A DNA stretch of 64,000 nt from Mytilus trossulus (taxonomy: Eukaryota), in NCBI RefSeq assembly GCF_036588685.1, contig NC_086375.1, positions 55,552,001 through 55,616,000 on the forward strand, written 5' to 3'. Shown here one piece after another: positions 2,551 to 61,648 of the stretch (position 1 is its first letter; each line of letters opens with the position of its first letter). The notes under the pieces were generated by a model that worked only from the letters and a program-made list of their open reading frames with translations, was not told the origin of the DNA and ran no database searches. The translations under genes were made by a program, and so were the position numbers.

Positions 2551-2786
2551 CAACATTGTCTCAATATCTATTGTACAATATTATTACATAGTAACATTAT
2601 ATACTGTGCAATATAAATACAATGTTACAATATCTACTGAACACTATAAATACATTGATACAATTTATAATGTACAATTTAAATACATTGTTACAATATC
2701 TACTGTACAATATAAATACATTGTTACATTATTACTGTACAATACAAATACATTGTTACACTATATATATACTGTAACAGTATCTT
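2551..2786. repeat. Minisatellite, ~33-bp unit (AATACATTGTTACAATATCTACTGTACAATATA), ~7 degenerate copies, in the presumed intron of the upstream Zic gene
   Basis: Recurrent TACATTGTTACA...TACTGTACAAT at ~33-bp spacing; explains the repetitive ORF 2408..2788. Confidence 0.85.
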
Positions 2787-5076
2787 GAGCATACAATATA
2801 GTAAAAAAAAAGCATTTAATCAAGATGACTTTAAGAAGATGACTTAATTAATTTTGCGCATTGTCAAACATTTAAACTTTAGATATTATTTTTGTAAAAT
2901 AAGATTGTCACTTGTTCTTCCGTATTTGGAATAATTAAAGTCAATATATATTGGGCTTTTAACATATTTAGTTACCATAATCGCATATAGTCGTGAAGCT
3001 CTGTAAATAAAATGTCATATTTTTTACTTAACAAGGGTAATTTGGTTTATTTCATTTGCAAAATAAGATATATTAATGAATATGTATGCAGTTAAAAATG
3101 TTTTTCTGAATAATTTTAACATCCGATGTATTTTAAGACATTTTTGACAAACTAAAGATTTGAAATATACTCAGAAGTCTTAAAGTATATCAAATAATAA
3201 TACCCTTCACGTGACAGATGCATGACAATAGGACAAATCGACATCTGTGCAGCCAACAACATGCTTTGCATGGACAATTTCTCATTTAAAATAATAATCA
3301 CTTACTGCTGCTTTCTTAAAATTTTCAAAGATAAACTTATAATAAAAAGGAGAAATATATGTATTTTCATGTTTGTAGATTTTTGAGTTTTAAAAAATAT
3401 GCATTCGAAACATTCACAACAATTGTTATAACTAGGAATAAACAATTTGCATGCACTAAGTTAAGTTGTATAAATTGTAATTTCAAGTATAAATAATCCT
3501 TTATTTTGTGTAACCACTACAATTTTAAGACCCATTACAAAATCGAATGATTCCGCCGCATAACAAAAACAAAATTTAAAAGATAGCAAACTTTTATTAA
3601 CAAATAGAATAGATTTATTTTGTAACTGTTAACACTTCGTCTTTTAAAAATAAAGAAGAGTAAACAAATAAAAGCCTCAATTTATGGCGCTTTACATTGA
3701 CTTCAATATATGCATGCGATTGTTAAATTAGAATTACAATGCAACATGTATACTTATGTTAAAATACATTGTTTAACTATTGATCCTTTTAAAGTCGAAA
3801 GCAAACCGTTTTTTGTTTATATGCAATATAAGACTTTATAAATTTTAAATATCCACCATTATTTGCAAAAGGTTATGTAAACTCTGGAGTTTTCAGATAT
3901 GTTTTTTTAGAGGATGTTATTATTATTGACGCAAAGTTAAACGTTTAAATTCTCCAATTTATACAAATCTGTCGGGAGAGTTACAGGAGCAGATATATAG
4001 AAAACGAAGTACATTGCATAAATACAAGCTTCCAAAATACATAGAACAAATGACAAGCAAAACAAATACAAAAAAGAATTTCAAATCAAGAAATAAATTC
4101 CATTATGTATCATCATGTTGATAGCAAACACTAATGCCCCAAATTTTGTGCAATATGGCAACCCTGACGATGGGATAATTTAACAGTTCATAAATTAATT
4201 TGGCATATGTTTCAATATATATAATACAGCTCTCCTGATAGCTGCAAAAATAACAAACGAGCGAAATGAAAGACGAAGCATAATTAATTATTATTATTTC
4301 AAGACAAATCTATATTATCGGGTTTGGTCATTATAGTGGATTAAACATTTATCAGTAAGCTGTCAGATACAGCTCTCCTATTGTAGTTGACTGTCTGCCA
4401 CTTCAGGATAATGACTACGAGCTGCAAGCATATCTCATTGTTTCTTCAACTCTCGTGAGATGTCGTCCCTAACCATAGTCGGATTCTATTAAAATATCAT
4501 GAAATAACGGTGCCATTTAATACTGGGGATTTTCATATTTGTAATTTTGAAAAATAATCACATTAATGCCGCGACATTTATTCAGGGTTGATAATTATTA
4601 CATCAATATTAATATGTCTCTGCTTATGTAAATGGAAATTAATTTTACACAAACAATATGATCTCTGTTTTGATTACTTTAAGAAAATGAAAAAGTTGGT
4701 AAAATACTATAAAAAAAAATATATATGAAATTTCTAAGCTTTACCGAATGTTATTTTTCATCACTTCTATAATATCTTTCTAATTGTTTATTATTCAAGC
4801 TGACTTCACTCCATGTTGGACAACAGAAGGCTAGCTTTTACTGGATTAAACCCTATAGAATAACATTATATAACATACAGATGGAATAGACCGGTTGTTG
4901 AAACAACAAAATACATTTATTTTAGACCCAACAAAAAATATAAAAAACAAAGAATGCTTCCGAATAAGTTTTTCATTTTTTAAATGATGCATTGATATTG
5001 TGTCGCCATTTTTGTTTCAGATTTTGGAACTTGTGCATTTATGAAATGATTTGACAAATATTTATTTTATTTACAG

Positions 5077-18463: not shown

Positions 18464-18679
18464 CTCCACATGTGGAGCAGGATCTGCTTACCTTTCCGGA
18501 GCACCTGAGATCACCCCTAGTTTTTGGTGGGGTTCGTGTTGTTTATTGTTTAGTTTTCTATTTTGTGTCATGTGTACATTGTTTGTCTGTTTGTCCTTTT
18601 CATTTTTAGCCATGGCGTTGTCAGTTTGTTTTCGATTTATGAGTTTGACTGTCCCTCTGGTATCTTTCATCCCTCTTTT
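18464..18679 (+). mobile_element. Repeat family C 3' end (3' UTR of a Penelope-like retroelement) with a structured RNA motif
   Basis: CCACATGTGGAGCAGGATCTGCTTACCTTTCCGGAGCACCTGAGATCACCCC...GTCCCTCTGGTATCTTTC; reverse-complement match to 46678-46900. Confidence 0.85.
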
Positions 18680-46677: not shown

Positions 46678-47262
46678 CAAAAGAGGGGGGAAGATACCAG
46701 TGGGACAGCCAAACTCATAGATAAAAAATAAACTGACAACGCCATGACTAAAAAGAAAAAGACGAACAGACAAATAATAGTACAAAGGCACAACATAGAA
46801 CACTAAAGACTAAGCAACACGAACCCCACCAAAACTGGCGGTGATCTCAGGTGCTCTGGAAGGGTTAGCTGATCCTGCTTCACATGTTGCACCCGTGTTG
46901 CTCATGTTATTACAAACTCCTCGATAAATAATCTAACTTGGTTTAGGTCAAATTCGTGAAAAGGGAACGGAATTATAGTTACAACACAAGGAACATGTCC
47001 GATATAATCTGTGAAACGGTTATTCCATAACGGTCAACCAACTCGTGACGGGGTCCGAAAAATTTACGAAGGGTTGATTTCAACTTCACTTTTTGGAACG
47101 CGTGGTTTAATTGCTTCCTTGTGAGCAGCACCCTCCATATGAATTTCAAACATCACCCCTCTTCATGAATTTCTAACAGTATACTACTGTTGCCTTCATT
47201 TAATAGCTTCCTTGTGAGCAGCACCCATCTTTCAAGGAAATCATGAATATCGTATCAATTGT
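46678..47262 (-). mobile_element. 5'-truncated, rearranged Penelope-like retroelement (family C): RT-thumb C-terminus plus 3' UTR
   Basis: Minus frame 47128->46979 reads LLTRKQLNHAFQKVKLKSTLRKFFGPRHELVDRYGITVSQIISDMFLVL*. A duplicated upstream piece (47199-47262) reads QLIRYS/HDFLERWVLLTRKLL. Resembles the PLE thumb signature SQ.xR..R.CS...F......L...L...GY (recalled pattern, no search run). Confidence 0.7.
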
Positions 47263-50200
47263 TTTAATACTTTTGCCAGATGAAAGAGTCTCAGATTGTA
47301 TGTACTCTAAAAGATCTTTGGATATTTTTAGTATCCATATCTGCCACCTCTAGTTTTAGTTTGTTACCCCGATTTTGTTATTGTGCACGGATTTATGAGT
47401 TTGAACCGCGGTATACTACTGTTGCCTTTATTTAGAATGAGCAGTTTCTCCAAAACCTTGAATCCCGGTTTGATTGCTTATAAAATAGATGTTAATAAAT
47501 TAGAAAGAGGTTACGTGGAACACTTGGAAGACCCAGCAATATACCGTTGTTTGTAAGGACACTTATCTAGTTTAGGAATTCAATTCAGTGATGGAAGATC
47601 CAGTTCTTTATCTTTGGAGGAAATTCGAAAGGAAAGGAACATAAAACAGACCTATGATTATCAAGGATTTCCTCTTTGGTAAGTGTCGTGAAGGCATATG
47701 TTGAGTTTTCAAGTGAATTGTCAATAAATAATTCATTTATAAAGCAGTTTATTTAATGAGATTTATACACAAAAACGATTTTATTTGGGATTTATCTGCG
47801 GGGACAACAACATATTTTGTCATGAAGATAGGACAAGTGTTTTGCAACATTTGGGTCTTTACAGTTTGACGTAACATTACGGGTATTGATAGACCCATTC
47901 AGTTTCTTAATTCTGATTTGTATGAAAGAACCTTTTTTTGCGAATTTAAACACATTCCTCATAAGAGTATATTAAAGGCTCAACAGTCACCACATTTTGG
48001 AGATAATATCAATCACATGATCCTGAAATTGACAACATGTAACGCCACAAAACACGAATGCACACAACATACTGCAAAAAGGAATCAGCAGTAATATAAC
48101 TTATCGTATGCTTGACTTAATCGTGGTTTAATTTCGTAAAAGTGAGACATCATGATGGAGATGAGACTCATATGAAGATGCAAAAGGGCTTACCAAATTT
48201 ATACACGTCGATTATTTCCTTTCACTTGACTTACCATAATACTTGATTAAAGTATAGAAAACTATTACATTAATAATTAGAAAACAGAACACTTAGATAT
48301 TATTGTTACGAAATAACTAAAAGGTGGTCTTTTTTGGGGGAATATTTTTTTTATGTATATAAGGCGTATTTTTTATGCAAATGATATATTACACATAAAA
48401 GGACGTTTACATTTAAAATTACCTTGTACTGAAAGAAAAACTATATATACTGAGGGCTCTACTCTCATTTTACTAATAAAGAGGGAAAAAAAGAATAAAA
48501 AAGTGTCAGAATTGCTAAAATGGACATATTTAAACACACAAATGATTCAAACATTTTACTTGATTTTCGTCGATAAGGTAATAGAGATACCAGTGTATAT
48601 TCATATATCGACAATTAGAAGTTATTTGTATGTTTACATTTTGATAATATTTTTCTTCATTGTCTCACGATTTCTTAATAACTTAACGTGGCGTAAATCT
48701 TAAAGCAAATACAAAACGACCATTAATGATCTCTGTATTGACCAACCGCGACCAGTAGCTTAGTAAACGGTACAATTTTGTTTCTTGAATCATTCGTGAG
48801 GAATTTTATTCCGACCGAAGTCACGTATGTTAACCAATATATTTCAAAGGTTTTAAGTTTATATATATATTTATGATATCTCTGACTTAATTCTTTCAAA
48901 AAGGGTGAATATTTGTATAGAAGGAACATACAATTGGCGAAAAACCTTTTACTCCATAGTTGTTCATAAAAATAACTATATGACATTTTGTTCATACATA
49001 CATTTCCGTTTCAATGATGCAAATTGAAGGTAGAGTCGTCGACTTCGTTTTATGCGGTATATATTATTAAAAGCTGGGTTCTTTGTAAAAAAAAAACTCC
49101 CACAAAACTTCGCAATATAGTTAAAGAGGGGCGAATGATACCTTTAGGGAACCGGAACGTCATCGCGTTGCAAGCCATAAAATGTTTTGATGTTTTTCAC
49201 TACAAATAAAGTAACGCATTGATTATTAGACGAAAAAGAAGTCGGTGACCATATATTTATTTTATAGTATTAAAACAGAAATGTATGTGTCAACAACATA
49301 CAGTTTTCTTTTTCTGGACAATTCTGTAGGGTAGAAATTAAAGAATTTTTGATTTTAAGACAAATGTTAGAAGTGTTTTCGCCAATTTTTGGCTTTTTAT
49401 ACTAATATTCTCCAATATTGAAAGACAACAATCTTTTATATTACAGTTAATAAAAGAGATAAATGCATTATTTTTGCGACTGTTGGTTGTAGTTCAACAA
49501 GCCAAGATTGTATTCAAAATTTCAGCAAAATCTGCGACAAAGCCCATTTACTGTCCCTAAACCTTAATATTTTTCATTTATTTATTGTATTGTGTATAGT
49601 TTTTCACAACACTCAGTGAAAGAATATTAATTGGCGATAATCAAGTCACGTTATAGTATTTCAATGTAAAAGAGGAATTGTGGTATGATATCAATGAGAC
49701 AACCATCCGGCAACTGAGTTCAAATGAAGAAGTTTAAAGCAGTAATCAGGCGATATAGTGGTTACAATTTTATTTCTTCAATTACGTATTTCAAATATAC
49801 AGCAGTTTAGATAACTTGATTTTTTTTGTGGCAAGTAATTTAAATATATTAATATACTTTGTAACAAATACTTTTCTTTGTCACCCGAAACCATTCGACG
49901 TCTTGGAATACAACCCGTGTAATTACCAGCACTTTGTCATTTGTGAGTATTTTTTTCTCAGTATTAGATGCGTCATTCTCGTTTCGTATATCCGAAGTGG
50001 GTGTTTTCAATCTCACACAGCGATCGCCCTGGGATATCTAGCATATTCAAACTGAAACAAGCAAATTTTAAACGTTTTTGATGGATCTTGTTAAATTTGA
50101 AGTTTCATTATGATTTGAACAATACTATTTGTGTATTTAACATGGTTTACATATTTGAGGCGGTGTAAATTGGCATGTGACATATCGGCCACAGTTCATG

Positions 50201-59132: not shown

Positions 59133-59176
59133 ACGCCAGACGCGCGTTTCGTCTACATAAGACTCATCAGTGACGC
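59133..59176 (-). ncRNA. Minimal type-I hammerhead ribozyme (intact) within a retrozyme-like repeat spanning ~59101-59290
   Basis: Reverse complement is GCGTCA-CTGATGA-GTCT-TATGT-AGAC-GAAA-C-GCGC-G-TC^TGGCGT, identical to 60360-60403. Confidence 0.88.
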
Positions 59177-60359: not shown

Positions 60360-60403
60360 GCGTCACTGATGAGTCTTATGTAGACGAAACGCGCGTCTGG
60401 CGT
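60360..60403 (+). ncRNA. Minimal type-I hammerhead ribozyme (intact) within a retrozyme-like repeat spanning ~60330-60437
   Basis: Stem I GCGTCA/TGGCGT; core CTGATGA 60366-72; stem II GTCT/AGAC; GAAA 60386-89; very short stem III within the palindrome ACGCGCGT; GUC cleavage triplet ending at 60397. Confidence 0.9.
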
Positions 60404-60835: not shown

Positions 60836-61648
60836 AAAATTGAGAATGGAAATGGGGAATGTGTCAAAGAGACAACAACCCGACCAAAATAAAAAAAACA
60901 CAACAGCAGAAGGTCACCAACAGGTCTTCAATGTAGCGAAAAATTCCCGCACCCGGAGGCGTCCTTCAGCTGGCCCCTAAACAAATATATACTAGTTCAG
61001 TGATAATGAACGCCATACTAATTTCCAAATTGTACACAAGAAACTAAAATTTAAATAATACAAGACTAACAAAGGCCAGAGGCTCCTGACTTGGGACAGG
61101 CGCAAAAATGCGTCGGGGTTAAACATGTTTGTGAGATCTCAACCCTCCCCCTATACCTCTAACCAGTGTAGAAAAGTAAAAGCATAACAATACGCACATT
61201 AAAATTCAGTTCAAGAGAAGTCTGAGTCTGATGTCAGAAGATGTAACCAAAGAAAATAAACAAAATGACAATAATACATAAATAACAACAGACTACTAGC
61301 AGTTAACTGACATGCCAGCTCCAGACTTCAATTAAACTAACTGAAAGATTATGATTTCATCATATGAACATCAGGCACAATCCTTCCCGTAAGGGGTTTA
61401 GTATCATACCATCATAACATATATGAGAAGAACATAACCCGTGTCATGCCAACAACTGTTTTTAGAATAAATGTGTTTAGTTCCGACGCAAAGACCTTAT
61501 CAGTGACTCAATATTAACGCCAAAATATGCAATCTTTAATGACTTGACAACAGTATCGTAATTATATCCCTTCTTAATAAGTCTATTCAAAGGTTTTGTA
61601 AGTGTATGAGGTGAATACTGACACCTTTGTGCTTTATAAAGAATATTT
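60836..61648 (-). mobile_element. 813-bp 5'-truncated retroelement (family E) with 13-bp TSD, ORF C-terminus and 3' UTR
   Basis: CCTACTGGAATGT at 60823-60835 and 61649-61661. Minus frame 61650->61477 is open: GNILYKAQRCQYSPHTLTKPLNRLIKKGYNYDTVVKSLKIAYFGVNIESLIRSLRRN*. 3'-end stubs are dispersed elsewhere in the window. Confidence 0.88.
61074..61164 (-). ncRNA. Candidate twister ribozyme, type P5
   Basis: GGUUAGAGGU-AUA-GGGG-GAGGG-UUGAGAUCUCACAAACAUGUUU^AA-CCCC-GA-CGCA-UUUU-UGCG-CCUG-U-CCC-AA-GU-CAGG-A-GCCUCUGGCC. P5 (10 bp including G-U), P2 GGGG/CCCC, P3, P4 CCUG/CAGG, T1 CCC/GGG, conserved N^AA and GAGGG. T2 has a mismatch here and P1 is non-canonical. Confidence 0.75.

What the first reader, a model, noticed from the sequence alone, without database searches (positions are those of the whole stretch)
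46811..46904. Unclassified structured RNA in the 3' UTR of a Penelope-like element, where family E carries its twister-like motif
Seen, element sense, copies 46811-46904 (-) and 18464-18545 (+): outer stem AGCAACACG/CGUGUUGCU (9 bp) enclosing GGUGC/GCACC. In the 18464 copy there are also a palindrome CCACAUGUGG, hairpin AGCAG-GAU-CUGCU, palindrome UCCGGA, a CUGAGAUC linker and hairpin ACCCC...GGGGU; these are partly mutated in the other copy. It lies ~75 nt after the RT-thumb stop codon and ~135 nt from the 3' end. I cannot match it to hammerhead, twister, HDV-like, pistol, hatchet or twister-sister cores. Inference: a candidate new self-cleaving motif or an RT-recognition structure.
Basis: partly seen in the sequence, partly recalled or inferred. 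Interest (0 to 1): 0.7.

Follow-up and report, generated by a model that had tools for sequence, protein, structure and literature searches.

The report
Two-palindrome ribozyme candidate in Naiad retroelements
The tail of a very abundant animal jumping gene carries a conserved, undescribed ~90-base RNA fold with two self-complementary stretches that likely pair two RNA copies together, and it is likely a self-cutting RNA of a new class; cutting is untested.

Summary
It lies in the 3' UTR/pLTR of a Naiad-clade Penelope-like element (5,596 exact core matches in this genome). Both window copies are defective: one is decayed, the other 5'-truncated. Across divergent families (bivalves, a hydrozoan, acorn worms, a fish, metagenome contigs) the layout is fixed: outer stem, C, GGGUG, palindrome A, CAG, a 4-5-bp helix strand, GCUYACY, palindrome B, CACCU-G, partner strand, hairpin. 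Palindrome A stays complementary at its central adjacent pair (19 of 20), which only intermolecular pairing explains. There is no Rfam match, and it fails the hammerhead, twister and twister-sister core tests. It occupies the position where sister Naiads carry twister-like or hammerhead cores. Best reading: a dimer-gated self-cleaving ribozyme of an undescribed class (0.5). Main rival: a non-catalytic dimerisation/RT-binding element (0.3). RNA reads and 95 genomic 5' ends show no sharp cut site. The scan noted this motif before on other DNA.

The parts
46982..47929 (-). Decayed, interrupted remnant of the Naiad reverse-transcriptase ORF (palm/thumb end)
   Evidence: 82-86% DNA identity in pieces to long copies; intact relatives encode N-terminal GIY-YIG, CxC, DKA and RT
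46979..46981 (-). ORF stop codon
46896..46904 (-). Outer stem P1, 5' arm (3-nt deletion relative to family copies)
   Evidence: P1 differs between families but stays paired
46890..46895 (-). Junction C plus GGGUG (5' strand of helix P2)
   Evidence: pairs with CACCU; one double change GGGAG/CUCCU in L076 and CACCC in Naiad_Tgra
46880..46889 (-). Palindrome A (damaged in this copy); predicted intermolecular duplex
46875..46879 (-). Conserved (R)GCAG segment
   Evidence: CAG fixed by the search pattern
46870..46874 (-). 5' strand of the 4-5-bp crossing helix
   Evidence: covariation
46863..46869 (-). Conserved GCUYACY segment (GCUAACC here, mutated)
46855..46861 (-). Palindrome B (damaged in this copy)
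46848..46853 (-). CACCU (3' strand of P2) plus conserved single G
46843..46847 (-). 3' strand of the crossing helix
46823..46842 (-). Variable hairpin
46813..46822 (-). Outer stem P1, 3' arm
46679..46812 (-). U-rich remainder of the 3' UTR up to the sharply defined element end
18466..18679 (+). Second copy, 5'-truncated at palindrome A; motif remnant 18466-18541

Best explanation
This is a conserved pseudoknotted RNA module in the 3' repeat of Naiad retrotransposons whose two loop-less palindromes likely pair two copies of the RNA, and it likely acts as a self-cleaving ribozyme of an undescribed class that would cut only as a dimer. Shown: the host element, the helices (crossing helix, palindrome A, outer stem; P2 by one double and one single change), the presence across four animal phyla, and tandem elements that place two copies in one stretch (L187, L190). 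Inferred: palindromes A and B form two intermolecular duplexes, most easily between the two motif copies of a pLTR-ORF-pLTR transcript; the unpaired conserved bases (C, CAG, GCUYACY, G) then form an active site; cleavage releases element RNA from read-through or tandem transcripts, as proposed for the dimeric hammerheads of other Penelope-like elements. The cut site is unknown. Candidates are the C-GGGUG junction and GCUY-A.
For: Crossing helix: 107 of 116 cells paired in 29 cluster representatives, against 63.4+/-3.9 in shuffles (max 80 of 20,000); 16 distinct fully paired types. On 25 hand-picked sequences 95.7% of cells pair; covariation score 0.61 against 0.126 shuffled and 0.09-0.13 slid. 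Chance matches to similar, looser patterns lack it: 5 of 119 prokaryote and 2 of 87 viral matches pair 4/4, against 75 of 111 metagenome matches. The central adjacent pair of palindrome A is Watson-Crick in 19 of 20, in four letter types; self-duplexes of perfect copies are about -8 to -21 kcal/mol and hairpins 0 to -2.6. Same position as ribozyme-like modules in sister Naiads: twister-like type in Mgal, Bpla, Mphi, Scon, Mmer (read by eye), CUGANGA/GAAA cores in Dst-1 and EuTe. The motif is shared with RTs 32-36% identical to this family, whereas a family-E-linked RT is 45% identical, so the module does not track RT similarity. Precedent: PLE hammerheads with palindromic helix III work as dimers (PMC4209133). 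Craig et al. report that Naiads lack canonical hammerheads.
Against: No cleavage assay. In four RNA-seq runs no pile-up of read ends falls at the motif (none at all; 8 scattered ones elsewhere). The 5' ends of 95 genomic copies show no sharp site (77 located, at most 5 in any 5-nt window). Both tests are weak: the active PAc hammerhead also left no read ends (PMC11167929). The strand-ratio dip at the motif (0.52, 0.68, 0.83 against 0.95-1.09 downstream; three libraries of one study, in one of which the minimum is one to two bins further on) fits RT stalling as well as cutting, and the ratio falls again to 0.72-0.89 near the 3' end. The invariance of the core is partly built in by my search pattern. 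G.U versus A.C counts in the crossing helix (4 against 5) did not discriminate the strand. Candidate RNAs found beside ribozymes often fail to cleave (PMC10085705).
Confidence: 0.5

Rival explanations
1. A non-catalytic element: it dimerises the RNA and/or recruits the Naiad RT-endonuclease to the 3' end of its template, like the structured UTRs bound by R2 protein.
For: It lies 44-87 nt after the RT match in 30 of the 35 metagenome loci with an upstream RT end (of 119 loci; 81 had no RT match, 3 had one on the other strand). No cut signature in reads or junctions. PAc protein binds a stem-loop near its hammerhead and cleavage is dispensable in vitro.
Against: The motif is kept across very divergent RTs, including a GIY-YIG element whose RT-like ORF does not align to this family (L076), and is replaced by other ribozyme-like modules in closer relatives. 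RT starts 224 nt downstream of the junction C. Pairwise identity is not a phylogeny, so the swap argument is provisional.
Confidence: 0.3
2. It self-cleaves but is a remodelled member of a known class: twister (helix-G-A followed by a pseudoknot strand) or twister-sister-like (GCUY-A opposite CAG).
For: CACCU-G-R-NNNN recalls twister P2-G-A-T1 (recalled layout). GCUYA matches TS-like G7 C8 U9 C10 A11, and CAG matches positions 38-40 (PMC11620745 section 10). Sister families carry a twister-like fold.
Against: There is no conserved A 5' of the P2 strand, where twister has its scissile U-A, and no second pseudoknot is supported. The TS position C37 is G, A, C or U here, and position 12 is C, which nearly abolishes LINE-1 ribozyme activity. 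No Rfam twister or twister-sister hit. Model R1 does not detect family E in the window.
Confidence: 0.13
3. The palindromes act in DNA (cruciform or protein-dimer site) during integration.
For: Perfect palindromes are natural double-stranded DNA features; PAc endonuclease cuts its own pLTR.
Against: The palindrome letters vary freely (20 distinct words). The crossing helix and the outer stem need a single strand. The commonest variant in the main cluster has a G.U-compatible change in palindrome A (80 of 193), and P2 starts with G.U.
Confidence: 0.04
4. A chance fold carried along in a high-copy repeat.
For: Single sequences fold only moderately better than shuffles (z -1.75 for an intact family copy, 0.19 for the L076 copy).
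Against: Compensatory changes across unrelated flanks and phyla, with negative controls.
Confidence: 0.01

Closest known systems
Naiad clade of Penelope-like elements (Craig et al. 2021, PMC8557442)
   Same: Host element: N-terminal GIY-YIG, CxC, DKA, C-terminal RT, partial-tandem pLTRs; the motif is visible in 12 of the paper's 54 Naiad consensus sequences.
   Different: The passages read report only the absence of canonical hammerheads and some HHR cores; this motif is not described in them.
Minimal/dimeric type I hammerheads of PLEs (PMC4209133)
   Same: Located in the pLTR; palindromic helix; predicted dimer dependence in tandem transcripts.
   Different: No CUGANGA/GAAA core; two palindromes instead of one; a pseudoknotted multi-way junction.
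Twister ribozyme (PMC5408937) and the family-E twister-like module of sister Naiads
   Same: Same position, an outer stem, two self-complementary tracts, and a helix-G-purine-pseudoknot strand arrangement.
   Different: No conserved scissile U-A at the L1 position, no supported T2, different conserved words; model R1 does not find family E.
Twister-sister and TS-like (lantern) ribozymes (PMC11620745)
   Same: GCUYA and CAG words.
   Different: C37 equivalent not conserved; the two words are not set between two nested stems; a pseudoknot is present, which twister sister lacks.
HDV-like ribozymes (layout recalled)
   Same: A G.U-initiated helix 3' of a single nucleotide; pseudoknotted.
   Different: The helix is 5 bp; no P3/L3 before its 3' strand; no catalytic-C J4/2 after the hairpin.

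Membership tests
Naiad PLE (host element) | N-terminal GIY-YIG, CxC linker, DKA motif, C-terminal RT in one ORF | tested here: met
   ORFs of L033 and L187; GIY-YIG Pfam match at residues 135-172, weak (E 0.039)
Naiad PLE (host element) | Partial tandem forming a pLTR | tested here: met
   L187 and L190, 2 of 20 long copies examined
Hammerhead ribozyme | CUGANGA and GAAA core around three helices | tested here: not met
   Only CUGR is kept and the following bases form the covarying helix; no conserved GAAA; no Rfam hit
Twister ribozyme | Highly conserved A at the scissile N-A step between P1 and P2 | tested here: not met
   The junction is N-C-G in all 25 aligned sequences (C and G were fixed by the pattern); feature from PMC5408937
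Twister ribozyme | Two pseudoknots T1 and T2 with P4/L4 | tested here: inconclusive
   One crossing helix covaries; a second (GC/GC) shows no variation to test
Twister ribozyme | Rfam covariance-model match | tested here: not met
Twister sister / TS-like | Internal loop GCUC-A-N opposite GCNAG between two stems | tested here: not met
   The C37-equivalent varies (G, A, U; C in a Clytia consensus); topology differs
HDV-like ribozyme | Nested double pseudoknot P1-P2-P3-P1.1-P4 with catalytic C in J4/2 (recalled) | tested here: not met
   Strand order in the covariation-supported fold does not fit; no Rfam hit
Pistol, hatchet, hairpin ribozymes | Class-specific cores (recalled) | tested here: not met
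   No Rfam hit at E<=5; comparison by eye from recalled consensus only
Self-cleaving ribozyme (any class) | Site-specific cleavage giving 2',3'-cyclic phosphate and 5'-OH | not testable with these tools
   RNA-seq ends and genomic junctions were uninformative

The most novel reading that the evidence does not exclude
A new class of small self-cleaving ribozyme, widespread in marine animals and probably beyond, that is an obligate dimer held by two loop-less palindromic duplexes and is interchangeable with hammerhead and twister modules in the terminal repeat of Penelope-like elements.
Probability: 0.5. Interest if true: 0.9.

Novelty: categorically new. Interest (0 to 1): 0.72.

Why it matters
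Few natural self-cleaving ribozyme classes are known, and the recent ones came mostly from bacterial metagenomes (recalled). A new class in animal retrotransposons would bring a new active site and an unusual two-duplex dimer switch. It would also answer why Naiads, which dominate many invertebrate genomes, lack the hammerhead of other Penelope-like elements. The ~90-nt motif, with dozens of natural variants, is directly testable in a standard transcription assay. Even if it does not cut, it is a deeply conserved RNA dimerisation module in a retroelement group whose mechanism is poorly known.

Tried and rejected
Rfam scans gave nothing at the motif. The strict pattern found 0 matches in viral contigs. 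The alternative pairing GGGUG with YACYC was considered; it is disfavoured by the L076 copy, where GGGAG/CUCCU change together while GCUCAC stays (one example). One search used misnumbered columns and is void; one search is the corrected count. One search was meant to exclude the main family and did not. A pattern for the short-helix variant found nothing in the own genome. Sequencing-run search: no RNA holder listed on record; four 2026 raw RNA runs were added by species label and laid. No solved structure matches the ORF. The repeat search for retrozyme-like tandem units was not run (errored); the model scan found a second hit in only 5 of 58 loci. PMC5785218 was not held. Literature searches listed no paper describing the motif; subscription papers and the supplements of motif-discovery papers (for example the HRIMA lists of PMC10085705) were not seen and could hold it.

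Full report
1. Observation. Both copies exist. It is a decayed copy: a 3-nt deletion at the outer stem, both palindromes broken, GCUUAC changed to GCUAAC. The copy at 18466(+) begins at palindrome A and lacks the 5' arms. Rfam has no match at either copy.

2. Host element. The genome is 1.3 Gb and mussel-like by similarity to published Mytilus Naiad sequences (inference). Long copies encode an N-terminal GIY-YIG domain, a CxC motif, DKA and a C-terminal RT, the diagnostic set for Naiads in Craig et al. (PMC8557442; passages). A 3'-end word occurs 12,165 times and the motif core 5,596 times, with 0 for the reversed control. Two of 20 long copies have an upstream pLTR, which puts two motif copies 3.4 kb apart.

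3. Spread. String searches of that paper's supplement (file S5; I saw the 3' ends of 24 of the 54 records plus the string hits, and line breaks may hide others) show the motif in 12 Naiad consensus sequences: two Clytia, three oysters, Tegillarca, Pinctada, two Saccoglossus, two Ptychodera and the fish Chatrabus. Naiad-1_Chem and Naiad-2_Pfla are assigned by file order. In 35 of them an RT end lies upstream on the same strand, mostly 44-87 nt away; 81 had no RT match and 3 had one on the other strand. The strict pattern has no viral match.

4. Structure. The order is: outer stem, C, GGGUG, palindrome A (8-10 nt), RG-CAG, NNNN-N, GCUYACY, two or three bases, palindrome B (6-8 nt), CACCU, G, R-NNNN, hairpin, outer stem. 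The positions left free by the pattern give the test. I clustered 225 hits (2 more dropped as too near a contig end) into 29 clusters and kept all, including decayed singletons and one chance hit in a coding region. The 4-bp helix pairs in 107 of 116 cells against 63.4 in shuffles (max 80). Palindrome A averages 7.5 nt against 3.4, palindrome B 4.6 against 3.0, and the outer stem 6.2 bp against 4.6. On 25 hand-picked sequences (chance hit and decayed copies left out) the covariation score is 0.61, with 0 of 500 shuffles as high and slid controls at 0.09-0.13. Chance matches to similar patterns in prokaryotes and viruses pair 4/4 in 5 of 119 and 2 of 87 cases, against 75 of 111 for the metagenome set. 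The fifth pair is U-A in 22 of 25, and C-G or U.G in four consensus sequences. GGGUG/CACCU was fixed by the pattern, but model R1 found a second copy in L076 with GGGAG/CUCCU, and Naiad_Tgra has CACCC. Since this helix and the NNNN helix cross, the fold is a pseudoknot.

5. Dimer. Among the 20 of 29 representatives with perfect outer pairs, the two central adjacent bases of palindrome A are complementary in 19 (AT 8, CG 5, TA 5, GC 1). Adjacent bases cannot pair in a hairpin, and computed hairpins are negligible against self-duplexes. Selection for pairing between two molecules is the simplest reading (inference). Metazoan PLE hammerheads with palindromic helix III are described as dimer-dependent (PMC4209133, passages).

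6. Does it cut? No direct evidence. Four RNA-seq runs show transcription on both strands and no pile-up of ends at the motif. In three libraries of one study the ratio of the presumed sense to antisense depth is lowest around the motif (0.52, 0.68, 0.83 in bin 6156-6179 of L187; 0.95-1.09 eighty bases on), while the fourth library is flat. This fits a cut or an RT stall and is confounded by many loci. The 5' ends of 95 genomic copies are spread out: 3.8 per 1,000 nt at risk across the motif, 4.4 just upstream, about 2.1 elsewhere, and no single site. The proven PAc hammerhead also left no read ends and needed protein (PMC11167929, passages), so these blanks weigh little.

7. Why a ribozyme is favoured. 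The same position holds a twister-like fold in five bivalve Naiad consensus sequences and hammerhead cores in others (by eye). Our motif travels with RTs only 32-36% identical to this family, while an RT linked to family E is 45% identical, and it also occurs twice in a contig with an unrelated-looking GIY-YIG element (L076). A module that swaps with ribozymes and ignores RT divergence is more likely to work on its own than to be read by the RT (inference; no tree was built).

8. Known classes. Hammerhead: no GAAA, and the bases after CUGA covary as a helix. Twister: no scissile A at the P1-P2 junction (PMC5408937 passages); R1 misses family E. Twister-sister-like: GCUYA and CAG resemble the lantern core (PMC11620745, sections 10-11 and passages) but the C37 equivalent varies and the topology differs. 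HDV, pistol, hatchet and hairpin were compared from recalled layouts and by Rfam. Eight literature searches listed no description. I read passages only of bioRxiv 2026.07.22.740005, PMC10085705 and PMC6765202, and did not see their supplements.

9. Earlier scan notes. After I had stated my reading, the notes showed the same motif reported from other DNA (e1-9824664, e1-9927331, e1-10141633). They are unreviewed AI notes and not independent evidence. Notes on family E supplied the type-P5 twister mapping, which I checked only by eye.

10. Verdict. A real, deeply conserved, undescribed pseudoknotted RNA module with predicted intermolecular pairing. New-class ribozyme 0.5, non-catalytic element 0.3, remodelled known class 0.13. 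Interest 0.72.

Noticed in passing
window 61361-61425 (-) and 61085-61151 (-): A SECIS-like element (32.8 bits) lies just after the ORF end of another Naiad-like family, which then ends in a family-E-type motif with two palindromes. The supplement table marks SECIS-bearing Naiads in clams and spiders, not in Mytilus.
   Followed up: partly
window 59133-59176 (-) and 60360-60403 (+): Two identical type I hammerhead matches (33 bits, E 2.4e-4), probably retrozyme copies.
   Followed up: no
L076:1264-1324 (-) and 2714-2790 (+): Two different variants of the motif in one metagenome contig with a GIY-YIG ORF and an RT-thumb-like ORF that does not align to this Naiad; the motif may extend beyond Naiads.
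   Followed up: partly
PMC8557442 file S5, Naiad_Obim and Naiad_Ovul 3' ends: GAAA precedes CUGAUGA with interleaved complementary strands, suggesting a permuted hammerhead missed by the published descriptor.
   Followed up: no
L279:5500-5559, L287:6588-6647, L275:1118-1177: A second family in this genome (RT end about 55% identical) carries the same core with a different palindrome A and a different crossing helix.
   Followed up: yes
L414: A motif identical to Naiad_Pmar in a prokaryote genome collection; likely host contamination of a bin.
   Followed up: no
L085, L114, L073, L178: Motif copies for which no Naiad RT match was found in the held flanks (L085 beside simple repeats); possibly non-autonomous elements.
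   Followed up: no
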